The notes beneath the pieces are model-generated. The model was not told the DNA's origin. It was given only the letters and a program-made list of their open reading frames with translations, and ran no database searches. A stretch of 64,000 nucleotides of DNA, taken from the IMG/VR virus record IMGVR_UViG_3300031993_000003; one strand, 5' to 3'. A program made the position numbers and the translations under genes. Shown here in pieces: positions 25,258 through 64,000 of this stretch. The stretch's first letter is position 1. Each line of letters starts with the position of its first letter. The DNA comes from a virus.

Positions 25258-25277
25258 CTATTTAGTTTGAAAGTTTT

Positions 25278-26688: not shown

Positions 26689-26719
26689 TCTATATAAACC
26701 ACATATTCGGAGAAACATT

Positions 26720-27013: not shown

Positions 27014-27031
27014 AGCATAAGCACTGACCCG

Positions 27032-27753: not shown

Positions 27754-27757
27754 CTAA

Positions 27758-28425: not shown

Positions 28426-28444
28426 AAAGAGAAGAGGTACAACA

Positions 28445-28639
28445 ATGAGCGCATGGAAGAAAACTGCCGAGGAGCTTCCCGAGAATGACGAGCCGGTGGC
28501 AATCCGCCCAAGTTTCCATGGGCGACAGTTCGCCGTATGGAACCGGAAGTGCGACTGTTGGGACGACGAGACTGGCGACGACTACATGTGCGACCGTGAC
28601 GCGGTCGAGGAATGGTACCCTATTCCATGGAACGAATAA
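28445..28639 (+). CDS. Small hypothetical protein.
   Basis: 64-aa ORF. Confidence 0.4.
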   Translation: MSAWKKTAEELPENDEPVAIRPSFHGRQFAVWNRKCDCWDDETGDDYMCDRDAVEEWYPIPWNE

Positions 28640-28649
28640 CAGGAGCGAA

Positions 28650-28833
28650 CATGAAGAAGCACGAGGATATCCCGGAAGAGACCGAGGAACAGAAGAGGGA
28701 GCGCTGGGAGAAGTCCCAGAAGAAGGCGAGGTCGTTCGCGAGGCAGTGCGGCGTGGACCTGAAGAAGATTACCAGGGAGCGCCGGAAGATTGCCATGGAG
28801 CATGCCAGGGGTTCCGAGAAGTACGACTACTGA
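28650..28833 (+). CDS. Small basic hypothetical protein.
   Basis: ORF starting MKKHEDIPEE…. Confidence 0.4.
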
Positions 28834-28842
28834 TTTTAAGGA

Positions 28843-28932
28843 GGTGTGGCCGAGAGGTTGATGGCTGCCGATTTGAAATCGGCCGAGGGCTGATGAGGTC
28901 CTCCGTGGGTTCGAATCCTACCACCTCTTCTA
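28843..28932 (+). tRNA. tRNA-Ser(UGA), type II.
   Basis: GGAGGTG-TG-GCC…GGC; stem GCCGA/TCGGC with loop TTTGAAA; variable arm GAGG…CCTC; T-arm GTGGG-TTCGAAT-CCTAC; 3' CACCTCT. Confidence 0.6.
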
Positions 28933-51242: not shown

Positions 51243-51290
51243 AAAAAAATTAAAAATCCCGGGAATTCTCCCGGGATTTTCCTTTTCCAC
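51243..51290. terminator. Bidirectional terminator hairpin (AAAATCCCGGGAATTCTCCCGGGATTTT) between convergent genes.
   Basis: Perfect 10-bp palindromic GC stem flanked by A- and T-runs. Confidence 0.55.
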
Positions 51291-51302: not shown

Positions 51303-51971
51303 CTATTGCCGGACCATTTCCCGGATGAAATCCTCGATGTCTATCTCGGTATTCCCTAGTTTTTCCAGAAGGATTCTATTGTCCCTAATGAACTGTTTAA
51401 CTGCATCTATGTCGGATGCAGACAGTTCCATATCGGGGGATTGTACCAGGATGCGCGGATTATCCTCGATGGACATCGGAATCATGTCACGCGTGATTGG
51501 ACGGTCACCCTTGTCTCGCTGAAACTTGATTCTGTTTGCATGGCCAGACTCCTTCCATGCACCGCTGTCGTCAACATAAATGTTCACCGGCAATCCAGTC
51601 TTGTTCTTTCGGAGGCATGCCATCTCAAACAATGAATCACCAGAATCATTGAACGTGGCATTAAACCCTTGCCTTACAGCGTCGGCAAATACTGACTGTC
51701 GATTGCAGTCGTCTAGCATAGAATCAAAATATTTTTGAGATACGGGCATATTTTTGCAATACCACTTTTTCTCACAGTTTATTACGAGAAGTCCTGGTTG
51801 AAGCACCAGTCGCTCTCCTCGCAGTACTTCTTGCGGAGCTTCTGCAGGGCCTGCTTGTGTTTGCTCCTGATATAGTCCTTGCTGCTCCCGGTGACTCCGG
51901 CGATGGACGCGAAGGACCACGTATGGCCGCTCATGCGCCCGTCGGTGTCGGCCTCGTCCTTCATGTAGCAC
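51303..51971 (-). CDS. Hypothetical protein.
   Basis: 222 aa. Confidence 0.45.
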   Translation of the reverse strand: MLHEGRGRHRRAHERPYVVLRVHRRSHREQQGLYQEQTQAGPAEAPQEVLRGERLVLQPGLLVINCEKKWYCKNMPVSQKYFDSMLDDCNRQSVFADAVRQGFNATFNDSGDSLFEMACLRKNKTGLPVNIYVDDSGAWKESGHANRIKFQRDKGDRPITRDMIPMSIEDNPRILVQSPDMELSASDIDAVKQFIRDNRILLEKLGNTEIDIEDFIREMVRQ

Positions 51972-52552
51972 TTGTCGACGATGTCCTTCTCCTCTTTGTC
52001 GAGGACGCAGGAGATGCTGTCGGTGATTGTCCGGTATTCCCTGGTGGCCGAGTAGTTGACCACGGAGTCGGCGGCTTCCCCTTCGAGGGTGTCGAACAGG
52101 GTGAGGCTACCGCCTTCCTTGACGGACTTGTAGCCGGACTCGAGCTTGACGTACTTGTCGCACTTGTTGGCCTTCACGATGTTCTCCGGGAGGTGGATGA
52201 GTCGGTCCTCGTAGCATTCCTTGTTCATTGCGGAGAACACGTGGTTGCGGAGGAACGTCCAGAAGCGGTTTCCCTGGGTCGGGTCGAACAGTTCGATTGC
52301 ACGGTCGATGGCCAGCATAGCGGCGGAAATGAGCTCCTCCACGTTGCCCTTGAAGTGCTTGTACTTGTCCTTGCTGGCCATCTCCATGATGGCCGGTAAC
52401 TGCTTCTCGAACAGTAGGTTACGGGCTATTATGTCGCCCTTCTTGGCCCGCATGATGATGGAGTTCTCGGCATCAGCCGTGTATGCCGCCTTGCTGGCCC
52501 TGGTGTATACCTTCCTTACCCTGTCCTTGAACTGCTCCGTTGCCTTTTCCAT
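51782..52552 (-). CDS. Sigma-70-family RNA polymerase sigma factor.
   Basis: Region-2-like (…FDPTQGNRFWTFLRNHV…) and region-4.2 HTH (SFASIAGVTGSSKDYIRSKHKQALQKLRK). Confidence 0.55.
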   Translation of the reverse strand: MEKATEQFKDRVRKVYTRASKAAYTADAENSIIMRAKKGDIIARNLLFEKQLPAIMEMASKDKYKHFKGNVEELISAAMLAIDRAIELFDPTQGNRFWTFLRNHVFSAMNKECYEDRLIHLPENIVKANKCDKYVKLESGYKSVKEGGSLTLFDTLEGEAADSVVNYSATREYRTITDSISCVLDKEEKDIVDKCYMKDEADTDGRMSGHTWSFASIAGVTGSSKDYIRSKHKQALQKLRKKYCEESDWCFNQDFS

Positions 52553-52673
52553 TCTTTCGTCTCCGGTTAGTTTGTTGTTAAGTTGTGTTCTTTTGAAAAT
52601 AATTTCGTGATAGAAATATAATAAATAAATCCATCACGAAACATATTTTTCAAAAATAATTTGTAAAAAATTA

Positions 52674-53270
52674 TTACTCCTGCTCGATGAAGAGTTCGGG
52701 GTGGACCCTGCGCATCGAGGAAAAGCCCTGGCGGCTCACCACCATGCTGTCGAGCAGGCGGATTCCGAGTAGCTTTCCGGCCTCGATTAGACCCTTCGTG
52801 AAGGAGGCATCCTTGCCGGAGAACTCGAGGCTCCCGCTCGGGTGGTTGTGCGCCACGATGATGCCGGTCGCTTGGTCCTCGATTGCGTAACGGTATACCT
52901 CTCCGTAGTTTACGCACACGCCGCCGGCGCTCCCGGTAGCGACAAGGTGACGCCCGATGAGCGTGTTCTCGGAGGTGACGGTGAGGACGACGAGGTTCTC
53001 GACCATCTTGTCCTTGAGGTCGCTGAGGCGCCACGCGACGATGTCCGGGTTGGACAGCGGCAGCATCATGGTGCCGAATACGAACTTGGTGGACATCCCG
53101 GCGGCAGCCGCAATCTTTCGAGCGGTGACCATCGGTACCTTGAGCGCGGAGGCTATCTGCTCCGGCTCGGGAATCGCGCGGCATGTCGCGAGGTAGCTAA
53201 CCGCGCTTTCGGCCACCCGGCGGTTGCCGAGCAGTGTGGCCATGAGTGTGATTGTTTCGCTGTTTGCCAT
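52674..53270 (-). CDS. radC: RadC-like JAB/MPN-domain protein.
   Basis: JAMM-like motif …GIIVAHNHPSGSLEFSGKD…. Confidence 0.6.
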   Translation of the reverse strand: MANSETITLMATLLGNRRVAESAVSYLATCRAIPEPEQIASALKVPMVTARKIAAAAGMSTKFVFGTMMLPLSNPDIVAWRLSDLKDKMVENLVVLTVTSENTLIGRHLVATGSAGGVCVNYGEVYRYAIEDQATGIIVAHNHPSGSLEFSGKDASFTKGLIEAGKLLGIRLLDSMVVSRQGFSSMRRVHPELFIEQE

Positions 53271-53311: not shown

Positions 53312-54586
53312 CTATGCGTACATGACCGTCTCGGGTCCCTGCACCCAGCCCAGGTCAGCGAGACGCTTTCCTGCCGCTGCGCATGCCTTAATCTCATCGT
53401 CCGTAAGCATGCACCCGTGCAGTCTCGTCGGCACGTCGCCGTCCGGGCCCACGTAGAGCATGTCCCCGCGTCCGCACAGGGTCTCCGCTCCCCCGCGGTC
53501 GATGATGACCTGGGAGTCGGTCCTGGAGGCCACCTTCAACGCCACGCGGGTGGAGAGGTTGGCCTTCAGGGCGCCCTTCACCACGTCGGCGCTAGGACGC
53601 TGCGTGGCCAGCACCAGGTGGATACCCGCGCTCCTTGCCTTCGCAGCGAGGACGGAGAGGGGTTCCTCGAATGCCGCCCCGAAGGACACCATAAGGTCAT
53701 AGAACTCGTCGATTACCACCACGACCCTCGGGAAGATGTTCCCTACGCTGTAGTGGCGGCCCTCATAGTCGAAAACGATTATTTTTTCCGCGTCGCGGAT
53801 TACCGAGTTGCACGCATCGAGACTGTTCACCCCGACGTGGCGGAAGAAGGCCATGCGGAACCTCATAGTCTCCACCATGTGCTCCACCACCTCCACCGCG
53901 TCATCGGTGCCGTACGCGACGTTCACCGCCAGGCCGCCCTCGCGAGTCATCCCCCCGATGGAGGGATGGCCGGAAAAAGAATTAAATTCCGTGCCCTTCG
54001 GGTCCACGATGATGACCCTGGCCTCGCCCGGGAAGTAGTTCGTCACTATCCCGCAAATCAAAGAATTCAGGAACACGGACTTGCCGGAGCCGCTCTGCCC
54101 GGCCACCAGCATGTGCGGGGCCTTCGCCACGTCCACCGTGTACGGCCTGCCGGCAGTGTCCACGCCGAAGCACACCTTCAGGCCCGCCCCGCCGCCGCAC
54201 GGCACGACTACGCCGCTCGGGACAGCCACGCGCTCCATGTTCGGTACCTCCACCGCGAGGCACACCCTGCCGTTCCACATCGTCTCTCCGATGTAGACCT
54301 TCGCGGAGCCGACCCCGAGACGCAGCCCGAGGTCCCTGCGGAGGTTCTCTATCCTGGAAATGTGCTCCGTGTCCTTGCTCAGCTCGAGGATGTACGTCGA
54401 CACCACCGGGCCCCTCTCGGTGCCCACTACCTTCGCCCCCACGCCGTTCGACCTGAAGAACGCGTCGATGCGGCTCCCCATGTCGTCAGCCGGGAACTCC
54501 GGCATGATTCCGCCGAAGATGCCGGAAGTGGACTTCCTCCACACTCCAAGGTATCTCGGGTCGTGCCATTCGCTGTAGTAGGACAT
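53312..54586 (-). CDS. FtsK/SpoIIIE-family DNA translocase ATPase.
   Basis: Walker A LVAGQSGSGKSVFLNSLI; motif IIVDPKGTEF; Walker B VVVIDEFYDL. Confidence 0.6.
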   Translation of the reverse strand: MSYYSEWHDPRYLGVWRKSTSGIFGGIMPEFPADDMGSRIDAFFRSNGVGAKVVGTERGPVVSTYILELSKDTEHISRIENLRRDLGLRLGVGSAKVYIGETMWNGRVCLAVEVPNMERVAVPSGVVVPCGGGAGLKVCFGVDTAGRPYTVDVAKAPHMLVAGQSGSGKSVFLNSLICGIVTNYFPGEARVIIVDPKGTEFNSFSGHPSIGGMTREGGLAVNVAYGTDDAVEVVEHMVETMRFRMAFFRHVGVNSLDACNSVIRDAEKIIVFDYEGRHYSVGNIFPRVVVVIDEFYDLMVSFGAAFEEPLSVLAAKARSAGIHLVLATQRPSADVVKGALKANLSTRVALKVASRTDSQVIIDRGGAETLCGRGDMLYVGPDGDVPTRLHGCMLTDDEIKACAAAGKRLADLGWVQGPETVMYA

Positions 54587-54655
54587 ATCGCTATTCTCCG
54601 TTAAATTTGACGTTTTTCCTTTACATTCCCTCTATGCCACAGGGAATCCTCCCAG

Positions 54656-54680
54656 GCATCCCCCGGGCGTACCCGGTAGT
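54656..54680 (-). promoter_or_regulatory. GC-rich upstream motif (top strand …GCATCCCCCGG…CCCGGTAG), variant copy, upstream of the FtsK-like gene.
   Basis: Shares the GCATCCCCCGG core with 11 other copies. Confidence 0.35.
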
Positions 54681-54689
54681 TCCCGGGAG

Positions 54690-55355
54690 CTACCTCCCGT
54701 CCCACCCGACATCCACCTCCCGGTAGACATCGCGGGTGTTCCTCCGGTGCATGTCGGGCCCCTCGTAGTATTCGACCTGGCGCCTGTACACCGAATCAGC
54801 GCACTTCCCGAACAGCCTAGGCTTCGTCCGGTGGGATATGTCGAAGAAGATGTCCCCCGGCACTCCACGGGAAGTGTACCGGCCCGGGTTGTCTCCCTTC
54901 CGGTAATACTTCGCGCCAAGGACGCGCATGCGCCCGTCCCCCGACGAGGTAACAACTATGTCCGGGCAGTGGGAAACCACCCCCGTCACCATCACAGCCT
55001 GAGGGCCCGGATAGGCGGCATCGTACTCGCAGGTGAATCCCCTGCACTCGCCGCCCTCCCTCACCATTATCACCTGGCGCAGGTGCCTCACGGTCACGTC
55101 CGGGCAGCGCCAGGCGTATTCCCCGGTGTAAGGGTCGGTATACCTCCCGGCAGGTACATCGAGGTCCCCCAGGAACACGCAGTAGCGCCTCCCGTCCTCC
55201 ACCCGCAGCTCCCCGGTACGCCCCGGGAGGTCCCAGGCCGTACTGGTTGCACCCGGGATGTAGGGCATAGAGAAATTGAAGTCCGACGGAACCGGGTCCG
55301 CCGGGCATATGCCGGCGAAGGCCAGCCCGAAGGCAATCGTGGCAATCCTATTCAT
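54690..55355 (-). CDS. Secreted hypothetical protein (signal peptide).
   Basis: MNRIATIAFGLAFAGICPA…. Confidence 0.45.
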   Translation of the reverse strand: MNRIATIAFGLAFAGICPADPVPSDFNFSMPYIPGATSTAWDLPGRTGELRVEDGRRYCVFLGDLDVPAGRYTDPYTGEYAWRCPDVTVRHLRQVIMVREGGECRGFTCEYDAAYPGPQAVMVTGVVSHCPDIVVTSSGDGRMRVLGAKYYRKGDNPGRYTSRGVPGDIFFDISHRTKPRLFGKCADSVYRRQVEYYEGPDMHRRNTRDVYREVDVGWDGR

Positions 55356-55692
55356 GGGTGACCCCCTTCATGGAAACGGCACGCTGGACGGCCCGCAGCA
55401 CCGCCCCGGAAACCTTGCCGTAGGGCTCCACCTTGCCGTGGGCCCCGCGGCAGTCCAGCGACAGCGAAAGCGCCTGTATGCCCCCGTCCGTGCGGAGACG
55501 GAATACAATCCTCGGGACCACCGGGGAACCTCCCGGGAGACCCGCGCGGGAAAGGAGCGCCTCCCTCTCCCCGTCAGTCGAGAAGGCCATCTCGGCTATA
55601 ACCGTGGCCTGGCCGTTCCTCCTGCGCGTGGTCGTGACGCTGAAAATCTTCACGTATCTCATATCTCTCTCCTTTCCTGCCTTGCAATCCAC
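55348..55692 (-). CDS. Hypothetical protein.
   Basis: 114 aa. Confidence 0.4.
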   Translation of the reverse strand: MDCKAGKERDMRYVKIFSVTTTRRRNGQATVIAEMAFSTDGEREALLSRAGLPGGSPVVPRIVFRLRTDGGIQALSLSLDCRGAHGKVEPYGKVSGAVLRAVQRAVSMKGVTHE

Positions 55693-55710
55693 GTATCCCG
55701 CCAGTAACCT

Positions 55711-55742
55711 CCCGGAAGCATCCCCCGGGAAAACCCGGTGGT
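55711..55742 (-). promoter_or_regulatory. GC-rich upstream motif copy (CCTCCCGGAAGCATCCCCCGGG…CCCGGTGG).
   Basis: Core plus CCGGTGG half-site. Confidence 0.4.
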
Positions 55743-55821
55743 TCCCCGGGAAATCCCCCTGGAGGACACGGGAAGGTCCCCGGCACGTGCCGGGGGCCCT
55801 CCGGGAGACGTAAAATTTTCC

Positions 55822-56073
55822 TTACAGCGGGGGCATGTCCTCGAAGTCCACTATGCGCTTGTCAATGAACCATTCCTTGCCCTTGTGGTTCTCCACCTCG
55901 GCCCCGGTGTACTGCATGGCCCAGTCCCTCCCGAAACGGGCCATGAAGATGTTCCTGGCCTCCTCGTAGGCATCCGGGCATTCCCTCTCGTAGGGGACGG
56001 TAACGCGCACGTAGATGTCCTTGTTGGGGCTGTCACAGCCGAAGGTGAAGTAGTAGCTAGTCTTTCCTGCCAT
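55822..56073 (-). CDS. Hypothetical protein.
   Basis: 83 aa. Confidence 0.4.
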   Translation of the reverse strand: MAGKTSYYFTFGCDSPNKDIYVRVTVPYERECPDAYEEARNIFMARFGRDWAMQYTGAEVENHKGKEWFIDKRIVDFEDMPPL

Positions 56074-56136
56074 ATTTGACTCCTTGATGTATGTTCCTAT
56101 TGTATATATCGTCTCGCCCGCCGAAAATGTAAAGCG

Positions 56137-56517
56137 CTATGCCGACGCCATGCGGGAAACGACCTCGCCCAGGGCAGTGCGGCTGAACTTGCAGCGTTCG
56201 CGCATGCTAGGCTTCCCGGGACCGTCATGGCGGCTCACCAGCACGGAAGATTCCTCCTTCACCCGGCCGTCCCCGGCATAATCCAGCTCGAACTCGAAGG
56301 TCCACCTGGACTTGCCCCCTGACGTGGACACGCAGGCCACCAGCCCGCGCTTACCCCCCGCAAAAAGGTTGCTGCTGTAAGATATCCCGTTGCTTTCCTC
56401 CGGAGAAAGCGCCCCAGCCATGCACACCGATACCATCAGGCGGAGGTCCGCCAGCAGTACGTTCACGTGCTTGACTGCATTTCCGAGGTCCTTGCCGTAG
56501 TCTATCCTTGCACTCAT
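56137..56517 (-). CDS. Hypothetical protein.
   Basis: 126 aa. Confidence 0.4.
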   Translation of the reverse strand: MSARIDYGKDLGNAVKHVNVLLADLRLMVSVCMAGALSPEESNGISYSSNLFAGGKRGLVACVSTSGGKSRWTFEFELDYAGDGRVKEESSVLVSRHDGPGKPSMRERCKFSRTALGEVVSRMASA

Positions 56518-56551
56518 GTCATATCTCCTTGTCTATCTGTTTGCAACTCCC

Positions 56552-57556
56552 CTATCCATCCCGGGCAACCCCCGGAGCATCCCCCGGGACATCCCGGTGG
56601 TCCACGCGGAGACGGCACAGGAGCCTCTTGTACTGCTCCCTGCCCCCGACGTAAGCCTTCATCCGTATCCCGGTATCCCACCCGGAGGGTCTGCCGTGAG
56701 GGTAGGAACACCCCAATATCTCGAACTGCTCCGGGCACAGCCGGTTCAAGGCCGTCACCGGGACCCCGAACACCCCGTAGTAGTCCGACGGGATGCACTC
56801 CGCCCACGGAACGTCTATGGCGTCGTACCGGTCGTACCTACGGTAGCCCCTGCACTTTTCCGGCTTGTGCTCCAGGTTCCACCCCATGCTCTCCAGGTGC
56901 ATCTCCCGGTGCCTCCCCGGATAGTCCACCGTGGTAAGCCAGCATACCCCGGACACCCGCATCACCGCCTCTCCGCCGACCTCCCGCTCCTCGTGGTAGC
57001 TCTCCGCGTACCCGTAACCCTCCGGCACACGGAAGAACATCCCGCGGTTGAAACCCGTCGCCCCCGCCCAGCACTCGCCGTCCCTTATCGCCGGGAACAC
57101 CTCCGGGTACGTCACGCAGTTCACCGGGGCTATCACCGAAAAACCCTTCCCGGTACCAAGGAGCCACCGGGAGAAACCGTGCATCAGGCTGAAAGGGGGA
57201 TTGGTCGCTATGAAGTCGCACTCCCCCGCAAGGTCCGTGCTCTCCGCAGAACAGTAGCTCCCGTCCCCCGCCATGTCCCAGGTCACCCATTCCCTACCGT
57301 CATAGGACCCGGCCTTCCCGTGCCCTCCCGGTACGTACCCGGAACACACCACGCGGGACAGCCCGAAAGAGGAAAAATTATCCGCGAAAAATTTCGGGAA
57401 CGCGCTCTCTCCCGGGAGGTCGCACGGGCAGTACACCGCCTTCCCCTCGAGCGTCCCCTCCGGATATGCCGAGAACTCGGCCCCTATGTCCGACTCCCGA
57501 GTGTAGAACTCGTCGCTCCTGCTCTCCCGCGCCTTGACCAGCTGTCCACGTCCCAT
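56552..57556 (-). CDS. Putative DNA N6-adenine methyltransferase.
   Basis: Motif IV IATNPPF; N-terminal DEFYTRESD (the EFYTP pattern common in phage adenine MTases). Confidence 0.5.
   Translation of the reverse strand: MGRGQLVKARESRSDEFYTRESDIGAEFSAYPEGTLEGKAVYCPCDLPGESAFPKFFADNFSSFGLSRVVCSGYVPGGHGKAGSYDGREWVTWDMAGDGSYCSAESTDLAGECDFIATNPPFSLMHGFSRWLLGTGKGFSVIAPVNCVTYPEVFPAIRDGECWAGATGFNRGMFFRVPEGYGYAESYHEEREVGGEAVMRVSGVCWLTTVDYPGRHREMHLESMGWNLEHKPEKCRGYRRYDRYDAIDVPWAECIPSDYYGVFGVPVTALNRLCPEQFEILGCSYPHGRPSGWDTGIRMKAYVGGREQYKRLLCRLRVDHRDVPGDAPGVARDG
56574..56600 (-). promoter_or_regulatory. GC-rich upstream motif copy.
   Basis: GGAGCATCCCCCGGGACATCCCGGTGG. Confidence 0.4.
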
Positions 57557-57601
57557 CCTATAGTCTCCAAAAATATTTTCCCGTAAGGAAAATATAGCAT
57601 C

Positions 57602-57951
57602 TTACCCGTCGCTTACCTCGGTCTCCCCGGAAAGCAGCCCGGTGAGTATCCGGGAGTACCGGGAATGCTCCGAACTTCCCGGGTCGCACACACCGCAGGC
57701 CTCCGTGTAGTGAGCTATGGCCGCCTCCCGGGTGCCCCAGTGCACCGTCTCCCCGTAGCACGTCACGTCAACCCCGTGGACGGCCTCCATCAGCACCGAG
57801 GGAGTTCCGGTATGCACCGGGAGGGGAAGGCCGAGCCTGTCCATGAGGGCAACCCCGGAAATTCCCTCGATGGAACGGGTGAACTCGTCCGGGTTCACCC
57901 CGTCATCCAGGACTACCGGAATCTTCAATGTAAAATTAAATTTTCTCATGT
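57602..57951 (-). CDS. Hypothetical protein (start trimmed to MRKFNFTLK…).
   Basis: The upstream part of the listed ORF runs through the GC-rich promoter motif. Confidence 0.4.
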
Positions 57952-58102
57952 CATACCCCGAAACATGCCGTGGCGGCCTCGTCCGCGGAGCGTCCCCCAA
58001 AGGGTCGCCAGCGATACGCAGACCGTCTCGCCTTCCGTAAACTTTGCCGTGCTCACGATTCTGTCTCCTTTTGTTTGAATCTTGTATTCCGGCGGGAATG
58101 CC

Positions 58103-58131
58103 CGGGAGCATCCCCCGGAAATCCCCGGTGG
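58103..58131 (-). promoter_or_regulatory. GC-rich upstream motif copy.
   Basis: GGGAGCATCCCCCGGAAATCCCCGGTGG. Confidence 0.4.
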
Positions 58132-58132
58132 G

Positions 58133-58560
58133 CTACCCGAACTCCTTCTTCAGTTCCTCGTATTGCTTCCGGCGCCTGTCCTTCTCGATGGCTTCCCATT
58201 TCTTGCGGTCAGCCTCCGCCTTGGCCCTGCGTTCCTCCTCGACCTTGCGTTTCTCCTCGCCGTGGATGCGCTTCAGTTCCTTGTATGCCTCGGCACGTGT
58301 CTCCTCGCACATGCACTTTTCCAGGAGAGCCCCGTCCACGCTGAACGTCTCGTCGTATTCGGTATCGCCGCCCTGGATTTCCCAGTCGACCGTAATCACG
58401 TAGCGGTCACCCTTGCGTTCGATGCCCTTGAATGTATACCAGCCATGATTAGATATATACATGGCTCCGAGCTTCTCGGCTACCCAGTGCATGTCCTTCC
58501 ATAGGCTGTCAATCGTCCTTTTCGCCTTTATGTAGGCGTCTATCTTTTCCTTTCCCGTCA
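58133..58560 (-). CDS. Hypothetical K/E-rich protein (start trimmed to MTGKEKIDAY…).
   Basis: As above; GGAG lies before the ATG. Confidence 0.45.
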
Positions 58561-58610
58561 TAGCGAGGTCTCCTTTTCTGTTTCTATCCACCGTATCCTC
58601 CCGGTAGCCC

Positions 58611-58641
58611 CCGGGAGCATCCCCCGGGAAAATCCGGTGGG
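58611..58641 (-). promoter_or_regulatory. GC-rich upstream motif copy (~45 nt upstream of the ATG at 58560).
   Basis: GGGAGCATCCCCCGGGAAAATCCGGTGGG. Confidence 0.45.
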
Positions 58642-58643
58642 CC

Positions 58644-58889
58644 CTACCGGGGTATCCGGTACACATGCACCGAGCTGTACCAGTCGCCACCGGTAGGCTC
58701 CCCGAAACTCCTCTCGGACACCTTCCCGTAGCCGTTCTCCTCCATCACCCAGTCCAGGTGGAGGTGGTCGTGCTTCCAGTCCCCGTCCGCCACCGTGACC
58801 TCCACGTTCCCCTCGCGGGTCACGCTCCAGTCGTAGGGCAAGTCGTTGTCCTTGAAGAACTTGCTAACCTTGTCAATCAGTGTCTGCAT
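58644..58889 (-). CDS. Small hypothetical protein (start MQTLIDKVSKFF…).
   Basis: The start was trimmed from the listed ORF. Confidence 0.4.
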   Translation of the reverse strand: MQTLIDKVSKFFKDNDLPYDWSVTREGNVEVTVADGDWKHDHLHLDWVMEENGYGKVSERSFGEPTGGDWYSSVHVYRIPR

Positions 58890-58900
58890 GTCTATTCCTC

Positions 58901-59275
58901 TTACTGCATCTCCCCGTCGACCGGGACGATGGAATAGATGGTCTCGATGCAGTTCTTGGGCTTGATGACGATTACGTCGACCTTGCCGTCCACGAGCTGC
59001 ATCTTCAGGTCGAGAAGGTCCTCCTCGTGCTCGTCCTTGTCGGTGATGCGGAAATGCACCGGGTTGCACAGGTCGGCACGGTAGGCCACCACGTCGACGT
59101 ATTCCTCGTCGCAGTTCACCAGCGCGTCGTACAGCGTGAGGAACAGCTCGTCAGCGGTAGCCCTCCGGCCCGCCGGGGAGGCCAGTACCTTCGTGAAGTC
59201 CGGGAAGTGCCTCCTCCCAATCGAGAAGGCGCTGCCGCCCACGATTAGGCCGATGTAGTGTTTCAGTTCGCTCAT
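58901..59275 (-). CDS. Hypothetical protein.
   Basis: 124 aa. Confidence 0.45.
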   Translation of the reverse strand: MSELKHYIGLIVGGSAFSIGRRHFPDFTKVLASPAGRRATADELFLTLYDALVNCDEEYVDVVAYRADLCNPVHFRITDKDEHEEDLLDLKMQLVDGKVDVIVIKPKNCIETIYSIVPVDGEMQ

Positions 59276-59337
59276 GATAACGTCTCCTTTTCAGTTAAAA
59301 GTTTTTCCCTGCCTCCCGTATCCTCCCGGAAGCCCCC

Positions 59338-59365
59338 GGGAGCATCCCCCGGCACAACCCGGTGG
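59338..59365 (-). promoter_or_regulatory. GC-rich upstream motif copy.
   Basis: GGGAGCATCCCCCGGCACAACCCGGTGG. Confidence 0.45.
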
Positions 59366-59642
59366 CTACCAGTCCACCTTCTTCCCGGTGACCTTCTCGA
59401 TAGTGAGGTTCTTCTTTCCGGCGGTGTGTACATAGAGATAGCAGAAGGGACCTCCGTCACCTACGATGAAGCGGTGGCCCTTTCCGTTCCACCCGCTGTA
59501 CTCCGCGAGGCGCACGATGGTTCCACCGGTAAGGACCTTACGGGTCTCGTCCTGGATGGCGAGCATCATTTCTTCCATAGAGGAAAATGTTTTCCCCTTG
59601 CTCCATTCGGCAAGATGTTCAGTATATTTGGTGATGGCCATG
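59366..59642 (-). CDS. Hypothetical protein (start MAITKYTEHL…).
   Basis: Trimmed start; the GC motif lies upstream. Confidence 0.4.
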
Positions 59643-59702
59643 ATTCTTTCTCCTTGTTGAAATTCTCTGCCCACAATATCGCATATCCTCCCGGTACTCC
59701 CC

Positions 59703-59730
59703 GGGTGCATCCCCCGTCCATACCCGGTGA
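59703..59730 (-). promoter_or_regulatory. GC-rich upstream motif copy (variant).
   Basis: GGGTGCATCCCCCGTCCATACCCGGTGA. Confidence 0.35.
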
Positions 59731-59733
59731 TTC

Positions 59734-59940
59734 TCACCCGTAGTACTCCGACAACGCCTCCTCCACGCTGCCCCCAACGAAGTCCCGGTCCGCCATAGGG
59801 TCCTCTACAGAAAAAAATTCCCCGTAGTCAACCAGCGACAGACGACCCCACCGAACACGGTCACCATCCAGCCTCACCCCGGTAGCTCCCGGGAGACCCC
59901 TCGATTCCAAATAATCCCTAACCTTCTCCACGTTCCCCAT
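59734..59940 (-). CDS. Small hypothetical protein.
   Basis: 68 aa. Confidence 0.35.
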   Translation of the reverse strand: MGNVEKVRDYLESRGLPGATGVRLDGDRVRWGRLSLVDYGEFFSVEDPMADRDFVGGSVEEALSEYYG

Positions 59941-59944
59941 ATAC

Positions 59945-60277
59945 CTATCCCCCTGTCACGAATATCCTTACCCCGCCAACGTCAACCTCGTTCACAGAGC
60001 CGGTGGCAACCGCGCCCTCGAGAGCCTCCAGCAACTCCCCGCACCCCTTCCCGCTCTCAATAGAAGGAAGGACGAAACGGCACCTCCCAGTACCCCCCAG
60101 GCTGTTGTGGAAGCCCACGACCGTAGTCCCCTGACCGTAAGCCTGCTGGCGCTCCACTATAGAACGTACCTCACGCGCCGCCTCCCGGAGTCCCCGGAAG
60201 GTACCGTCGCTCCACGTAGACCTCGCCACGCCGTTCACCTTCACCTCGCTCTGCCCGTATACTACTACGTGTACCAT
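59945..60277 (-). CDS. Hypothetical protein.
   Basis: 110 aa; GC motif upstream. Confidence 0.45.
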   Translation of the reverse strand: MVHVVVYGQSEVKVNGVARSTWSDGTFRGLREAAREVRSIVERQQAYGQGTTVVGFHNSLGGTGRCRFVLPSIESGKGCGELLEALEGAVATGSVNEVDVGGVRIFVTGG

Positions 60278-60342
60278 GTCTATGTCTCCTATGTTGAGTG
60301 TTAAATTCCTTTCTCACCCCATATACATCCCGGCATGCCCCG

Positions 60343-60369
60343 CAGGCATCCCCCGGTTCTCCCCGGTGG
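60343..60369 (-). promoter_or_regulatory. GC-rich upstream motif copy (variant).
   Basis: CAGGCATCCCCCGGTTCTCCCCGGTGG. Confidence 0.4.
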
Positions 60370-60699
60370 CCACCGGGAGGTACCTACGGATATTACCCGC
60401 ATGCACGCCGGGTGATTCCTTCGGGTGATGCCCGACAGTACACCACCGACAGTACACCAGCATGATACCGGGAGGTAATATGGCAACTCATGGACCGGTT
60501 ACACGGGGCACGTACCCCCACTATCCCCCACCGCGTACCACATATACCCACTACCGCCATGACACCCTGCTCACCCGTGCAGGGTATCCAGTGCCCTGGC
60601 TATGGGACGCACGCCAACCTCCCGGGAGACCCCCGTCGCTGAATACATGGGGCGCTCCGGGGGTTACCGGGAGGAAACCGGGTCAAACCCGTGAAAAAC

Positions 60700-61550
60700 G
60701 ACAAATTTGTTAGCGTTTTTGAGCTAAAAACGCCACTTGGTTAACCAAAATTTACAGAAAACACCTCCCGGAACCTTCCGTTCCGCTTTTTGGTCAAAAA
60801 ACGGGTACCTGCCAGTACCCCCACCGCGTACCTGGGGAATCTCCCGGAATCTCCCGGAACCTCCCGGAATCTCCCGGAATCTCCCGGAACCTCCCGGAAC
60901 CTCCCGGAAGCACCCAGTAACCTCCCGGAATCTCCCGGAAGCAACCCAGTAACCTCCCGGAATCTCCCGGAATCTCCCGGAACCTCCCGGAAGCACCCAC
61001 GTATGCCACCCGTCCCCGGAGGGGAACCTGGGGCAGACCGGGAGGCGACCGGGAGGCGACCGGGATGTAACCATGGTATATACCGGGAGGCGACCGGGAG
61101 GCATCCCCCGGTGGGACCCGGTGGGTCACGGTGGGGAGAACCGGGAGGTACCTCCCGGAGCAGACCTGGGAATCGTACTGGGGGAATACCGGGAGGTGAC
61201 CGGGAGGTGTCCACCCTTGAACCCGACGAGCGCGTAGGACCTGGTAATAACCGGGAGACATCCCCCGGTGGGACCCGGTGGGATACATGGTGGGGAACCG
61301 TGGGGAATTCCGGGAGGTACCTCCCGGTAGCACCCTTGAACCCGACGAGCGCGTAGGAGGTGTCCACCCTTGAAGCCGACCAAAGCGTATGACTGGGGAG
61401 CCACCCTTGAATCCGACCAAAGCATATGAGGAGTCCACCCTTGAAGCCGACCAAAGCGTATGACCGGGGAGCCACCGGGAGGTTGAGAAATAAAAAAATA
61501 AAAAAGTCCCCCCGGGGAGACCCGGGAGGACAGTAGGGGACGACACAAGA
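60700..61550. repeat. Non-coding iteron-rich region. Repeat family (a): ~15 tandem copies of CTCCCGGAA(T/C) at 60833-60990. Family (b): GACCGGGAGGC ×4-5 at 61025-61100. Family (c): 5 copies of a ~31-bp unit CCACCCTTGAANCCGAC…GCGTATGA at 61207-61470. The region ends in an A-rich run.
   Basis: Direct reading of the repeats; the only ORF here (60741-61889, minus) is a low-complexity artefact of the repeats. Confidence 0.65.
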
Positions 61551-61557
61551 AAAAATT

Positions 61558-62109
61558 TTAGGAATAGAACACCGGGGTGGTGGTGATGCGGGGGTTTTGT
61601 ACGGGGTTACCTTCGGTGTCGCGCGCCAGGAGGGAACCACGGGCGGAAGCGATGGCTTCCTCGATGGTGTCCTCGGGCGGGAGGTCGTATACCTTGACGA
61701 GCTTACCGTTTTCGTCGACGGTATTGATTGTGGGGACGAAGGCATCCGGGGTGGGGGGTTCGTCGACCTTCTCCTGGAGGGAGTCGAGTCGTTCGCGGAT
61801 GCCCTCTGCGGTTTCCTGGAACTCGTCCTTGAATGAGTCGGTCTCGTCCGAGAGGGTGTCGAGCTTGTCGGAGAGTTCATCCAGGGCATCCTGCTCGGCC
61901 TTCTTCTTACCCCATTTCGGGAGATGGAAGGCGGGTGAGCCGACTGCCTTGACGAAGGCGGCGCCTGCGAGGATGAGGATGATGGCGTAGACCGCGACGG
62001 TCTCGACGATGGTGGTCGGGGAGGCCTGTCCGGTGACGATGAGGAAGGTGTTGAAGCCGGCGACCGCGAGGATAGCTACGGCTACGGTGTAGATGAGTGT
62101 CTTGAGCAT
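61558..62109 (-). CDS. Membrane protein (2-3 N-terminal TM helices) with a coiled-coil/acidic tail.
   Basis: MLKTLIYTVAVAILAVAGFNTFLIVTG…. Confidence 0.5.
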   Translation of the reverse strand: MLKTLIYTVAVAILAVAGFNTFLIVTGQASPTTIVETVAVYAIILILAGAAFVKAVGSPAFHLPKWGKKKAEQDALDELSDKLDTLSDETDSFKDEFQETAEGIRERLDSLQEKVDEPPTPDAFVPTINTVDENGKLVKVYDLPPEDTIEEAIASARGSLLARDTEGNPVQNPRITTTPVFYS

Positions 62110-62167
62110 TGGTTGACTCCTTGGTTTATGGTTTAAGTTCTTGATTGTTATGGTATCGGGAGTTACC

Positions 62168-62197
62168 GGGAGGCATCCCCCGGTGGCATCCGGTGGT
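62168..62197 (-). promoter_or_regulatory. GC-rich upstream motif copy.
   Basis: GGGAGGCATCCCCCGGTGGCATCCGGTGG. Confidence 0.4.
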
Positions 62198-62199
62198 AA

Positions 62200-62763
62200 T
62201 TACTGGTTGAGCATCCTGTCGATGATGTTGGCGAGTTCCTGTAGTTTTTCCTTGTCGCCGTTGACCGCGTGAACCCGGATGGACATGGAGAGCCTCTTGA
62301 GGAAGCGTGGGTCCTTCCGGGAGGGGAATGGTAGCTGGTCGAGGGGGATACGGGAGAGTTCGGCCTCCTTCTTGAGTCGGAGTTCCTCGGCCTGTGCCTG
62401 GGCGGCGAGCGCCTTGAGCTGTAGGTAGTGCTGGTGTGCGTCGTCTGCGGAGGTGTAGTTTGCCTTGGAGAGTGTACCGGTGGCGCAGTTCCCGCATGAG
62501 ACGGGGAAGCCCTTGTTGATTCTGGAGTAGTGGAGGTCCTTGCCGCAGGAACAGCGGTAGGGGTACGGGAGCCCGAGGAGCATGGCGAAGCACTCGTCGA
62601 CGCGTGCGCCGTGGTCGTGGTAGACGTGGTCCTCGAAGTTTCTTTTCGGGAAGGGCTGCCTGCACAGGGGGCAGTGGATGGTGGTACGGGAGTACTTCAT
62701 GCCCTCGGTCTTCTGGTGGGTGACGTACTGTGGTTTCGGCTCGGTAATGAACTTGAGTTGCAT
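62200..62763 (-). CDS. Hypothetical Cys/His-rich (zinc-finger-like) protein.
   Basis: HCPLC…H…H; CSCG…CGNC. Confidence 0.45.
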   Translation of the reverse strand: MQLKFITEPKPQYVTHQKTEGMKYSRTTIHCPLCRQPFPKRNFEDHVYHDHGARVDECFAMLLGLPYPYRCSCGKDLHYSRINKGFPVSCGNCATGTLSKANYTSADDAHQHYLQLKALAAQAQAEELRLKKEAELSRIPLDQLPFPSRKDPRFLKRLSMSIRVHAVNGDKEKLQELANIIDRMLNQ

Positions 62764-62794
62764 CGTTGTCGGCTCCTTTAAAAAATTTTTCTGA

Positions 62795-62870
62795 AACGGG
62801 TATTCCTCCCGGAGATTGCCGGGAGCATCCCCCGGGGATACCCGGTGGGAATTACGGGAGGCTACCGGGA
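62795..62870 (-). promoter_or_regulatory. GC-rich upstream motif copy embedded in a ~70-bp repeat (copy 1 of 2).
   Basis: GTATTCCTCCCGGAGATTGCCGGGAGCATCCCCCGGGGATACCCGGTGGGAATTACGGGAGGCTACCGGG; the identical repeat recurs at 63465-63540. Confidence 0.5.
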
Positions 62871-62880
62871 GGAATCCGGG

Positions 62881-63443
62881 TTAATCGTCGGTGAAAACGG
62901 GTTCGATTTCCTCGAGGTCTTTGATTTTATCCTTGTCGTTGGTAATTTCGATGGAATTGAATGCCCATGAGCCTACCAGTGGGTCTTCCTTGTGGTAGTC
63001 GCCGCCACCGCGCCCGTTGCCGAGGGCGGTAAGGATAGAAACCGGGAATATGCACCATCCGTCCTTGTCCGAGGAGGCCTCCTTGTACTTCTTGAGGTCT
63101 ACGAACTGTTTCTTGTCGTGGTTGACGAGGTAGGCGTAGTCGTCGAGGGAGAAGCCATCGGGCGCGGGGTCGATGGGTTCGTCGATGTCCTCGTCCCATA
63201 CCCTGCCGTAGGAGAAGCCGAGTGCCTGGCATTCGTCTTCCTTTGCGTAGTCGCCGCACCAGCATACCTGGGTGGGTTTGTCGACGATGGAAGCGGCGAG
63301 CGCCTTGCAGACGCGGTTGTCCCACCAGGAGTGTTCGAGGAGCTTCGCCATGACGTAGCTGCCGTCGCCCTTGATGTTGCGGTCGTTGACGGTGAGCTTG
63401 CCGTCGGAAGTCTTGGTAACGATTTTGTAGTATTGGCCCATGA
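62881..63443 (-). CDS. Hypothetical protein (start MGQYYKIV…).
   Basis: AAAAGGAGAC ribosome-binding site before the ATG. Confidence 0.45.
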
Positions 63444-63464
63444 TTATGTCTCCTTTTGTTGTAT

Positions 63465-63540
63465 TGCAGGTATTCCTCCCGGAGATTGCCGGGAGCATCC
63501 CCCGGGGATACCCGGTGGGAATTACGGGAGGCTACCGGGT
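63465..63540 (-). promoter_or_regulatory. GC-rich upstream motif copy embedded in a ~70-bp repeat (copy 2 of 2).
   Basis: Near-identical to 62795-62870. Confidence 0.5.
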
Positions 63541-63575
63541 CCTGCCGGTGCCCCCGTCCTCACCCGGTGGGTCAG

Positions 63576-64000
63576 CTAGTAGTTCTCCGCTTCCTTCTTG
63601 GTACGGAAGAAGTGGATTCCGGTGGAACACTCGACGTTGTACGCGAGGTCGAAGTCCTTGACCTTTAAAATTTTTCCCGGAGTATAAGTGAACTCAGGGT
63701 CATGCCGGGAATGGAGTACCTTGCACTTACCCATGTCTAAATGGAGTACCTTGCACTTACCTATGTCTATTACCTTGGCGGTGTTCGTGCGGCACTTGGA
63801 ACCGTTGATGCAGAACACTACGGCACCCTTGGGGATTTCCAGGGTAATAACCACTCCTTCGGCAGTTGTCTTGTAGCCCTTAATGGGTTTGTCGAGGATG
63901 ATTCCCTTGCGGAATTCATCTTTAGGAGAAAGTGTCGTCCCGGAGAGGTTCGCCCCGGAGAGTGTCGCCCCGGCGAGGTCCGCCTGTCGGAGGTCCGCCC
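63576..64000 (-). CDS. Pentapeptide-repeat protein, 5'-partial (continues beyond the window end).
   Basis: Translating the minus strand from the window end gives ADLRQ-ADLAG-ATLSG-ANLSG-TTLS…, in frame with the listed ORF 63576-63854. Confidence 0.55.
   Translation of the reverse strand, partial: ADLRQADLAGATLSGANLSGTTLSPKDEFRKGIILDKPIKGYKTTAEGVVITLEIPKGAVVFCINGSKCRTNTAKVIDIGKCKVLHLDMGKCKVLHSRHDPEFTYTPGKILKVKDFDLAYNVECSTGIHFFRTKKEAENY

What the first reader, a model, noticed from the sequence alone, without database searches (positions are those of the whole stretch)
54600..63560. A second, GC-rich upstream motif defines a distinct promoter class for the minus-strand gene block, next to a phage sigma factor gene
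About 12 copies of CCACCGG-N5-7-CCGGGGGATGC(T/C)CCCGG (in gene orientation) lie 30-60 nt upstream of the start codons of consecutive minus-strand genes from 54.6 to 63.5 kb. Two copies are embedded in a 70-bp perfect repeat. This block lacks the TTTGCTATATTTG motif entirely. A sigma-70-family sigma factor gene (51782-52552) sits at the edge of the block, so it could be the cognate regulator in a two-stage transcription programme. Several ORF-track starts in this block are artefacts of reading through the motif.
Basis: partly seen in the sequence, partly recalled or inferred. Interest (0 to 1): 0.65.

Follow-up and report, generated by a model that had tools for sequence, protein, structure and literature searches.

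The report
Phage-specific GC-rich promoter-like motif class
A block of small genes in an uncultivated giant phage has the same GC-rich, rigidly spaced upstream signal before almost every gene; it is most likely a phage-specific promoter class, an expected kind of feature, and its link to the neighbouring sigma factor gene is plausible but unproven.

Summary
The window holds 13 co-oriented minus-strand copies (about 1 expected by chance). A further 11 lie just beyond the window end, giving 24 copies in about 18 kb.

Across 73 distinct copies from at least six related genomes, the invariant parts are ACCGG-N7-CGGGGGATG. An ATA box follows 21-22 nt downstream, then a 20-38 nt leader with a strong ribosome-binding site. 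If the first A of ATA is -11, the boxes fall at about -54/-49, -40/-32 and -12/-8, which is the geometry of a sigma-70-type promoter.

Relatives with sigma homologues 45-86% identical carry drifted versions of the motif at the same syntenic positions. The other motif, TTGCTATATTTG, stays letter-perfect in all of them. This argues for a fast-evolving phage-encoded recognition factor.

The adjacent divergent sigma-70-family gene has its own AT-rich upstream region and is the leading candidate. A residue-level covariation test was inconclusive, and no transcription data exist.

Verdict: an undescribed member of a known kind, phage-specific promoters. Interest is moderate.

The parts
63470..63518 (-). 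Motif copy 1 (CCACCGG ... GGGGGATGC ... ATAC), before gene 63441-62881. Lies inside the 71-nt perfect repeat.
62800..62848 (-). Motif copy 2, before gene 62763-62200. Lies inside the 71-nt perfect repeat.
62148..62196 (-). Motif copy 3, before gene 62109-61558. Its ATA box is displaced (ATAC at +17).
61233..61281 (-). Orphan copy 4 (GGGGGATGT, CTAC in place of ATA). No ORF follows. It runs into a TTCAAGGGTGG repeat unit.
61076..61124 (-). Orphan copy 5, with an ATA box but no ORF. It points into the CCTCCCGG/CCGGGAGR repeat arrays.
60321..60369 (-). Motif copy 6, before gene 60277-59945.
59682..59730 (-). Motif copy 7, before gene 59641-59366.
59317..59365 (-). Motif copy 8, before gene 59275-58901. 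It starts directly after the upstream stop codon.
58592..58640 (-). Motif copy 9, before gene 58561-58133.
58083..58131 (-). Motif copy 10, before the short GTG ORF 58056-57946 and gene 57949-57602.
56552..56600 (-). Motif copy 11, before gene 56517-56137. It overlaps the 3' end of the methyltransferase gene.
55693..55741 (-). Motif copy 12, before gene 55662-55348.
54631..54679 (-). Motif copy 13 (CTACCGG variant), before the FtsK/SpoIIIE-like gene 54586-53312.
51782..52552 (-). Divergent sigma-70-family gene (regions 2, 3.2 and 4; about 37 aa of region 3 missing). Candidate cognate factor.
52555..52675 (-). AT-rich upstream region of the sigma gene, with no GC motif. The unique 15-mer TTTATTTATTATATT (52615-52629) is flanked by the inverted repeat TTTCGTGAT/ATCACGAAA and is conserved in close relatives.
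61506..61531 (-). Strong intrinsic terminator that splits the motif block into two transcription sub-blocks.
51252..51281 (-). Strong intrinsic terminator that closes the minus-strand block downstream of the sigma gene.
60300..61557 (-). Conserved non-coding hub. It holds the two orphan copies, 34-nt TTCAAGGGTGG units, 11-bp CCTCCCGG repeats, a 15-unit 10-bp TTCCGGGAGR array (60836-60992) and an AT-rich conserved block.

Best explanation
The element is a phage-specific promoter. A transcription complex whose specificity comes from a phage-encoded factor initiates about 11 nt downstream of the first A of the ATA box. This gives each small gene, or gene pair, in an 18-kb early-like block its own transcript with a 20-38 nt leader carrying a strong ribosome-binding site.

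If the first A of ATA is -11, the boxes fall as follows: cATAc at -12/-8 (like a -10 element), CGGGGGATG(c) at about -41/-32 (like a -35 element), and CACCGG at -54/-49 (an upstream element or activator site).

The neighbouring divergent sigma-70-family protein (51782-52552) is the most likely specificity factor; I put this at about 0.4-0.5. It would be made from its own AT-rich promoter and would then switch host core RNA polymerase onto the GC-rich promoters.

What is shown: the motif, its rigid architecture, its tie to gene starts, and its lineage-specific drift in relatives. What is inferred: that transcription starts there, where it starts, and which protein reads it.
For: 1. **Number and strand.** There are 13 of 13 copies on the coding strand in the window and 24 of 24 in the 20.5-kb locus L014, against about 1 or fewer expected.

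2. **Placement.** Copies fill the intergenic spaces. They often begin 0-3 nt after the upstream stop codon, and ATA lies 28-46 nt before the start codon.

3. **Architecture in 73 distinct copies from the window genome plus L115, L160, L162, L163, L107, L087 and L063.** ACCGG and CCGGGGGATG are invariant or nearly so. ATA follows GGGGATG after 21 nt in 45 copies, 22 nt in 13 and 20 nt in 4.

4. **The ATA box tracks genes.** All 10 copies that lack ATA at that distance also lack a downstream gene.

5. **Drift in relatives.** Genomes whose sigma homologues are 45-86% identical keep the synteny (small ORFs, then FtsK, RadC, sigma) and carry drifted versions of the motif before the syntenic genes:
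   - L025: CCACCTGGT..GACGGGGGGAGCT..ATA
   - L165: CCACCGTA.CCCCGGGGAG..GATA
   - L023: CTATCGGG..GGATGGGATGCCCGGGA..GGGGAATTCCCA
   - L021: CCACCGTG..GGGGGGACA..GGTAGCA
   - L020: CCACCGTG..GCAGGGGGGT..TAT

6. **Contrast with the other motif.** TTGCTATATTTG is letter-perfect in all of those lineages.

7. **Separate control of the sigma gene.** The sigma gene and RadC lack the GC motif. The sigma gene has a unique conserved AT-rich upstream element, as expected for a regulator made before its targets.

8. **Sigma conservation pattern.** Region 2.3/2.4 is nearly invariant across the family and the region 4.2 recognition helix is variable. This parallels the semi-conserved ATA box and the drifting upstream box.

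9. **Leader hairpin in L063.** A conserved hairpin, GGGCGGGTGTCCGCCC, starts 10-14 nt after ATA, where a 5'-terminal mRNA stem-loop would sit.

10. **No known RNA family.** Rfam finds nothing in 54-64 kb.
Against: - There are no transcription start or expression data of any kind.
- The only sharp covariation test was inconclusive. L025 has a changed motif with a sigma 86% identical to the window's, but L162 (also 86%) keeps the window-type motif. Only about two substitutions unique to L025 fall in the helix-turn-helix, roughly what chance would give.
- The invariant region 2.4 would fit equally well if this sigma read the invariant TTGCTATATTTG motif instead.
- Only about 20 kb per related genome, and 64 kb of a genome larger than 195 kb, could be seen. 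Other sigma factors, activators or phage RNA polymerases may exist.
- CCGG tetramers are phased roughly every 10-13 bp through the element, and ORF-less copies of the upstream half occur in arrays (L063). Both hint at a separate DNA-binding protein.
- Hairpin potential around the core is high: 83% of cells pair.
Confidence: 0.58

Rival explanations
1. This is an activator-dependent promoter of the T4 MotA type. The upstream half (ACCGG-N7-CGGGGGATG plus phased CCGG boxes) would be the binding site of a separate phage DNA-binding protein. That protein recruits or blocks RNA polymerase, and the sigma factor (host or phage) contacts only the ATA box.
For: - CCGG tetramers recur at about -62, -52, -42, -29 and -19, in 26-72 of 73 copies.
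- The same CCGGGAG word forms a 15-unit array with a 10-bp period beside the orphan copies.
- Copies of the upstream half without ATA and without genes occur singly and in ~100-nt tandem in L063. The upstream half is therefore a separable module.
- The block encodes a SpoVG-domain protein and many ORFans that could bind DNA.
Against: - No candidate protein was identified.
- The rigid 21-22 nt spacing between GGGGGATG and ATA fits direct -35/-10 reading by one sigma just as well.
- CCGG is self-complementary and the region is GC-rich, so part of the phasing may follow from the boxes themselves.
Confidence: 0.2
2. This is a promoter for a phage-encoded RNA polymerase, for example a virion-delivered enzyme that reads an extruded hairpin as phage N4 does, or a single-subunit enzyme. 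The sigma gene would be unrelated.
For: - The consensus CCGGGGG-ATG-CTCCCGG can form a 7-bp stem with a 3-nt loop. In register, 83% of cells pair, and 41 of 73 copies form stems of at least 7 bp, against 14% of shuffled 3' arms.
- The genes behind the motif are small ORFans, typical of the earliest class.
- Most of the genome was not visible.
Against: - The 5' arm is invariant and the 3' arm varies freely with no compensatory change. Covariation equals the shuffled control.
- 20 of 73 copies form stems of 5 bp or less, for example GATGCGTTTAATGG and GATGCCTTGCTG.
- Variants in other lineages do not keep a hairpin at that position.
- Conserved boxes spread over about 50 bp, unlike the contiguous ~23-bp single-subunit polymerase promoters.
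- No polymerase-like ORF or DxDGD motif in a long ORF was found in the window.
Confidence: 0.08
3. This is an RNA-level element between genes of one long transcript: a processing site, a stabilising hairpin or a translational operator.
For: - It is intergenic, co-oriented and capable of forming a hairpin.
- There are no terminators between most genes of the block.
Against: - No covariation supports the hairpin, and there is no Rfam match.
- Orphan copies exist without genes.
- Sequence rather than pairing is conserved.
- One copy directly follows a strong terminator region, where little read-through RNA would exist.
Confidence: 0.07
4. This is a selfish or recombinogenic intergenic repeat that spreads by duplication or gene conversion and has no regulatory role.
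For: - There is a 71-nt perfect repeat.
- Promoter-plus-leader cassettes are near-identical in L115.
- One window-type copy sits among L025-type copies.
Against: - Strand and position relative to start codons are strictly constrained.
- Box-wise conservation with variable spacers is not what a copied repeat looks like.
- Position is retained across lineages while the sequence drifts.
Confidence: 0.03

Closest known systems
Middle and late promoters read by phage-encoded sigma-70-family factors: Bacillus phage SPO1 gp28 and gp33/34, and phiEco32/7-11 gp36
   Same: A lytic phage encodes its own sigma. A conserved phage-specific motif, unlike host promoters, precedes a defined set of genes. The sigma gene itself is under a different promoter. 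The regulon has been inferred bioinformatically for phage 7-11 (PMC4331800) and the SPO1 cascade is described in PMC13401047 (abstract).
   Different: The phiEco32/7-11 promoters are a single 9-12 nt -10-like element (tAATGTAtA or TGATGT..TATA). Here three GC-rich boxes spread over about 50 bp, with phased CCGG. The target genes look early-like rather than structural. The sigma is only distantly related (best NCBIfam match SigK-type at 1e-15, far below the cut-off). Recognition has not been tested.
T4 middle promoters (MotA box with AsiA sigma appropriation)
   Same: A phage-specific upstream box replaces the host -35 element at fixed spacing from a -10 element, and many small early or middle genes each have their own copy (my own knowledge).
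   Different: No MotA or AsiA homologue was detected. The -10-like box here (cATAc) is not a host-consensus -10. The motif is GC-rich.
Phage N4 early promoters (hairpin promoters read by the virion RNA polymerase)
   Same: The consensus form can make a 5-7 bp stem with a 3-nt loop upstream of early-like genes (my own knowledge of N4; for this element).
   Different: The stem is not conserved on its 3' side, shows no covariation, and is absent from about a quarter of copies and from other lineages. No virion polymerase gene was seen.
B. subtilis sigma-E/sigma-K-type promoters
   Same: The best full-length family match of the phage sigma is SigK/SigE. Those sigmas read CATA-type -10 elements (my own knowledge), which resembles the cATAc box.
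   Different: The score is far below the family cut-offs (57 against 252 bits). The region 2.4 sequence is not alike. The -35-like box is unrelated. This is a lead, not a membership.

Membership tests
Sigma-70-family-dependent promoter | Lies upstream of genes and is co-oriented with them | tested here: met
   13 of 13 copies in the window and 24 of 24 in L014 are on the coding strand. Eleven of the 13 lie 51-69 nt before start codons.
Sigma-70-family-dependent promoter | Two conserved boxes at a rigid spacing compatible with -35/-10 | tested here: met
   ATA follows GGGGATG after 21 nt (45 copies), 22 nt (13) or 20 nt (4) among 73 copies. This puts GGATGC at about -37/-32 if the first A of ATA is -11.
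Sigma-70-family-dependent promoter | A primary transcript 5' end lies 5-9 nt downstream of the -10 element | not testable with these tools
   No transcriptome data were available.
Sigma-70-family-dependent promoter | A cognate sigma is encoded and shown to be specific for the motif | tested here: inconclusive
   A sigma gene is present and syntenic in every lineage. Residue-level covariation with motif type is not significant.
Sigma-70 protein family (ORF 51782-52552) | Contains regions 2 and 4 | tested here: met
   - Pfam Sigma70_r2 scores 23.0 bits (cut-off 24) and Sigma70_r4 scores 23.1 bits (cut-off 24.1), both just below the cut-off.
- phrog_351 gives 6e-16.
- NCBIfam SigK gives 1e-15 over residues 25-246.
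- PDB RpoS matches region 2 at 3.7e-6.
- About 37 aa of region 3 are missing.
N4-type hairpin promoter | A stem of 5-7 bp with a 3-nt loop, kept in both arms | tested here: not met
   The 5' arm is invariant and the 3' arm is variable. The covariation score of 0.177 equals the shuffled value of 0.174. 20 of 73 copies have stems of 5 bp or less.
N4-type hairpin promoter | The phage encodes a virion RNA polymerase | not testable with these tools
   None was found in the 64-kb window, but most of the genome (over 195 kb) was not visible.
T7-type single-subunit polymerase promoter | One contiguous conserved block of about 23 bp spanning the start site | tested here: not met
   Conservation is in three separated boxes over about 50 bp, with variable spacers.
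Intrinsic terminator | A GC-rich hairpin followed by a T-run | tested here: not met
   No T-run follows any copy. The real terminators are elsewhere, at 61531-61506 and 51281-51252.
Known structured RNA family (Rfam) | A match to a covariance model | tested here: not met
   There are no hits at E <= 1 in 54000-64000 on either strand.

The most novel reading that the evidence does not exclude
The element may be more than a sigma promoter. It could be the target of a phage factor that reads phased CCGG boxes and ties transcription of the early-like block to a conserved 1.25-kb non-coding hub at 60300-61557.

That hub carries two ORF-less promoter copies, iteron-like 34-nt units, a 15-unit 10-bp CCGGGAGR array and an AT-rich conserved block, and it sits at a GC-skew sign switch. 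It could be a transcription-primed replication origin, or a decoy array or non-coding RNA that titrates the factor.
Probability: 0.15. Interest if true: 0.6.

Novelty: new member of a known kind. Interest (0 to 1): 0.4.

Why it matters
Transcription programmes of uncultivated giant phages from gut or rumen-type metagenomes are essentially unknown.

This motif gives a ready-made operational map of one temporal gene class: at least 24 promoter-like sites driving mostly ORFan genes. It also supplies a set of natural motif variants across lineages that could be paired with sigma or other factor variants to work out recognition rules.

The contrast between a lineage-specific GC motif and an invariant AT motif offers a sequence-only way to tell phage-factor-dependent promoters from those read by conserved machinery. 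If the sigma link holds, it would be an orthogonal sigma/promoter pair with a long and unusually GC-rich target.

None of this overturns current understanding. It extends a familiar strategy to a new phage clade.

Tried and rejected
- **Mis-registered pattern.** It used N7 instead of N6, so its result is meaningless. It was corrected.
- **No cultured or catalogued relative.**
  - INPHARED megablast found nothing.
  - tblastn of the sigma gave only 24-30% identity hits.
  - IMG/VR gave only single chance motif hits and no sigma relative.
- **Host identification failed.** The Fib_succ_major-domain protein found only a 28% match in an Aureispira MAG. TTTGCTATATTTG fits both a Bacteroidota-type TAnnTTTG element and an extended -10 (TGnTATAtT), so it does not settle the host.
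- **Hairpin as the functional unit.** Pairing potential is real, but there is no covariation and the two arms are conserved unequally.
- **Residue-level sigma covariation.** The S-to-N change at the position I aligned by eye to E. coli sigma-70 Q589 also occurs in L162, which keeps the window-type motif. That residue therefore does not explain the L025 switch.
- **Uninformative look-ups.** P0006 and P0012 gave short contigs with only AT-rich regions upstream of FtsK.
- **The 1576-aa ORF (25-4755) as a possible polymerase.** It has no Pfam, PHROG or PDB hit and no polymerase motif.
- **Literature.** Two searches found no paper on this phage clade or this motif.

Full report
**1. The observation**

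Reading 54000-64000 on the minus strand shows the motif directly.
- The stricter CACCGG-N6-CCGGGGGATGC occurs 10 times against 0 expected.
- Anchoring on GGGGATG[CT] gives 13 copies. All are on the minus strand and all lie between 54663 and 63502.
- CCACCGG sits in a single fixed register relative to the core. The spacing is not variable N5-7.
- Eleven copies precede start codons: 51-69 nt from the end of GATGC, and 28-46 nt from a third conserved box, ATA(c).
- Two copies (cores 61265 and 61108) have no ORF behind them.

- The perfect repeat is 71 nt, at 62799-62869 and 63469-63539.
- TTTGCTATATTTG with up to 2 mismatches occurs 15 times, all on the plus strand between 6.7 and 47.8 kb, and never in the block. 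A 3-mismatch relative, GCTATATTTT at 57598-57589, precedes the methyltransferase gene.
- The ATG inside GGGGGATGC creates false ORF starts. ORF 62881..63498 is an example; the true start is 63441.

**2. Context**

The window is part of a contig longer than 195 kb, and related contigs reach 431-466 kb. It carries 19 tRNA genes, TnpB-type transposases, an NAD-dependent ligase and a tRNA nucleotidyltransferase. It has no near relative among deposited phages or in IMG/VR. This is an uncultivated giant phage.

Locus L014 extends the sequence 10 kb past window position 64000. It carries 11 more copies, giving 24 copies over about 18 kb, all co-oriented and each before a gene.

The boundaries of the block are clear.
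- At the upstream end, a gene is preceded by a 344-nt AT-rich region without the motif.
- At the downstream end, the block runs through the FtsK-like gene.
- RadC and the sigma gene follow, both with AT-rich upstream regions and no GC motif.
- A strong terminator at 51281-51252 closes the block. Another at 61531-61506 splits it in two.

Products of the block are mostly ORFans. The exceptions are a SpoVG-domain protein, a pentapeptide-repeat protein, an EcoRI-like adenine methyltransferase and an FtsK-like ATPase. This gene content is typical of early or host-takeover regions; that is my inference.

**3. Anatomy**

I collected 73 distinct copies from the window genome and from related contigs L115, L160, L162, L163, L107, L087 and L063.
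- ACCGG and CCGGGGGATG are invariant or nearly so.
- ATA follows GGGGATG after 21 nt in 45 copies, 22 nt in 13 and 20 nt in 4.
- The sequence between the boxes is variable.
- All 10 copies without ATA at that distance are also the ones without a downstream gene. The ATA box is therefore tied to gene expression, and the upstream half can exist on its own.
- If the first A of ATA is -11, then GGGGGATG(c) lies at about -40/-32 and CACCGG at -54/-49. This is the geometry of a sigma-70-type promoter with an upstream element. It is inference.
- Predicted leaders are 20-38 nt and carry AAGGAGAca 6-8 nt before the start codon.
- In the L063 lineage a conserved hairpin, GGGCGGGTGTCCGCCC, begins 10-14 nt after ATA, where a 5'-terminal mRNA stem would sit.
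- CCGG tetramers recur at about -62, -52, -42, -29 and -19.

**4. Hairpin or sequence?**

In register, 83% of cells in the 7-pair stem can pair, and 41 of 73 copies form stems of at least 7 bp, against 14% of shuffled 3' arms. The inverted repeat is therefore a real tendency.

Several results argue against the hairpin being the functional unit.
- The 5' arm never varies, and the 3' arm varies without compensation.
- The covariation score of 0.177 equals the shuffled value of 0.174.
- 20 of 73 copies manage stems of 5 bp or less.
- Some copies have unrelated sequence in place of the 3' arm, for example GATGCGTTTAATGG.

Two adjacent self-complementary CCGG boxes produce such an inverted repeat automatically. 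Rfam finds nothing in the region. I conclude that DNA sequence, not an RNA or DNA hairpin, is what is conserved. The hairpin is not excluded as an accessory feature.

**5. Relatives**

Sigma homologues fall into 12 clusters, all on large contigs, plus one distant bacterial primary sigma. The order small ORFs, FtsK, RadC, sigma is kept in every lineage.

The genes upstream carry lineage-specific versions of the same layout:

| Lineage | Sigma identity to window | Motif version |
|---|---|---|
| L160, L162, L163 | 92%, 86%, 85% | window type |
| L115, L063 | sigma not seen | window type |
| L025 | 86% | CCACCTGGT-N3-GACGGGGGGAGCT..ATA, plus one window-type copy |
| L165 | 53% | CCACCGTA-CCCCGGGGAG..GGGAGGnGATA |
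| L023 | 49% | CTATCGGG-N4-GGATGGGATGCCCGGGA-N3-CCCGGGGAATTCCCA |
| L021, L022 | 46% | CCACCGTG..GGGGGGACAyCCCGGGAGTTCCGGGTAGCA |
| L020 | 45% | CCACCGTG-N6-GCAGGGRGGT..TTTGGGACACCT..TAT |

By contrast, the 12-mer TTGCTATATTTG is exact in all of these lineages. One motif co-diverges with the phage and the other does not. This is what is expected if the GC motif is read by a fast-evolving phage-encoded factor and the AT motif by conserved machinery, whether host or conserved phage.

**6.

The ORF is a genuine but divergent sigma-70-family protein with regions 2, 3.2 and 4 and about 37 residues of region 3 missing.

In favour:
- Synteny is constant across lineages.
- The gene has its own unique, conserved AT-rich upstream element, TTTATTTATTATATT at 52615-52629. 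It lies 77 nt before the ATG in close relatives as well.
- Region 2.3/2.4 is nearly invariant while the region 4.2 recognition helix varies (DYIRSKHKQ, ECINRIRKA, EVVARRRKK, DLMRKRHAD). This mirrors a semi-conserved ATA box and a drifting upstream box.
- The best full-length family match is SigK/SigE. Those sigmas read CATA-type -10 elements; this is from memory and is a lead only.

Against:
- L025 has a changed motif and L162 does not, yet both sigmas are 86% identical to the window's.
- The S-to-N change at the position I aligned by eye to E. coli sigma-70 Q589 is shared by L162, so it cannot explain the switch.
- Only G-N-SKD and an L-to-M change are unique to L025 within the helix-turn-helix, about what chance predicts.
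- An invariant region 2.4 would also suit the invariant AT motif.
- Most of each genome is unseen.

I put the sigma link at about 0.4-0.5.

**7. Comparison with known systems**

The closest known kind is a phage-encoded sigma with its cognate phage-specific promoters. Examples are the SPO1 cascade (PMC13401047 abstract) and phiEco32/7-11, where a 9-12 nt motif was inferred and matched to experiment (PMC4331800).

This case differs in four ways: three GC-rich boxes spread over about 50 bp, phased CCGG, early-like target genes, and a sigma that belongs to no described subfamily.

N4-type hairpin promoters, T7-type promoters, terminators and Rfam families were tested and their defining features were not met (see the membership table). 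A MotA-like activator model remains open.

**8. Verdict**

The promoter-class interpretation is the best explanation (about 0.6 as stated, and about 0.8 for a promoter of some phage-specific kind). The sigma assignment is plausible but unproven. This is an undescribed member of a known kind, of moderate interest.

Noticed in passing
window 60300-61557: This is a 1.25-kb non-coding hub. Read on the minus strand it contains, in order:
- a terminator;
- five ~34-nt units ending TTCAAGGGTGG;
- two ORF-less copies of the GC motif;
- 11-bp CGCCTCCCGGT repeats;
- a 15.4-unit 10-bp TTCCGGGAGR array (60836-60992);
- a terminator-like hairpin;
- an AT-rich block with GCGTTTTTAGCTCAAAAACGC and CGTTTTTCACGGGTTTGACC.

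The layout is conserved in L160, L162 and L023. RNA from 61085-60790 folds with z = -4.5. It could be a replication origin or a non-coding RNA locus.
   Followed up: partly
window 54000-64000: Plus-strand GC skew flips from about -0.19 (54-60 kb) to +0.17 (62-64 kb) across the non-coding hub, although genes on both sides are on the minus strand. The coding strand is G-rich downstream of the hub and C-rich upstream of it.
   Followed up: no
window 6770-47770 (+ strand); loci L020-L025, L160-L165: TTGCTATATTTG is letter-perfect in every related lineage, even where the GC motif has drifted beyond recognition. It often follows a terminator hairpin directly, and in one case it ends 5 nt before the ATG (16039-16051, ATG at 16057), which implies a leaderless mRNA. 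It fits both TAnnTTTG and an extended -10 (TGnTATAtT).
   Followed up: partly
window 52604-52642: The sigma gene has a unique AT-rich upstream element, TTTATTTATTATATT, flanked by the inverted repeat TTTCGTGAT/ATCACGAAA. The 15-mer is conserved at the same distance from the ATG in L025, L160, L162 and L163. It may be an operator-controlled promoter.
   Followed up: partly
L063 (5795 bp, minus strand as fetched): A divergent relative has about 16 window-type cores in 5.8 kb. Three upstream-half copies lie ~100 nt apart without ATA or genes. Gene-proximal copies are followed by a conserved leader hairpin, GGGCGGGTGTCCGCCC, and by an AGGCAGG-type rather than AAGGAGA-type ribosome-binding region.
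   Followed up: partly
L025 5250-5370: A single window-type motif copy sits among five L025-type copies. It precedes the homologue of window gene 59641-59366, and the flanking sequence is identical to the window's. This suggests exchange of promoter-plus-gene cassettes between lineages.
   Followed up: no
window 57589-57602: The EcoRI-like adenine methyltransferase gene (57556-56552) inside the GC-motif block is preceded by GATGCTATATTTT, a relative of the AT-rich motif, and not by the GC motif.
   Followed up: no
window 63710-63769: A 30-nt tandem duplication (97% identical) lies inside the coding sequence of the pentapeptide-repeat/DUF5758 gene at the window edge.
   Followed up: no
window 19118-28930: ARAGORN finds 19 tRNA genes between 21453 and 28930, and Rfam adds a partial tRNA-like hit at 19118-19168. 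Three TnpB/IS605-type ORFs lie at 14475-15770, 19190-20926 and 41675-42985.
   Followed up: no
L014 35-378 (about 9.6-10 kb beyond window end): A 344-nt AT-rich non-coding region contains the inverted repeat TTTGGCTGAATATAGCCAAA. It precedes the first gene upstream of the motif block, a Cys-rich 117-aa ORFan, and marks the upstream boundary of the block.
   Followed up: no
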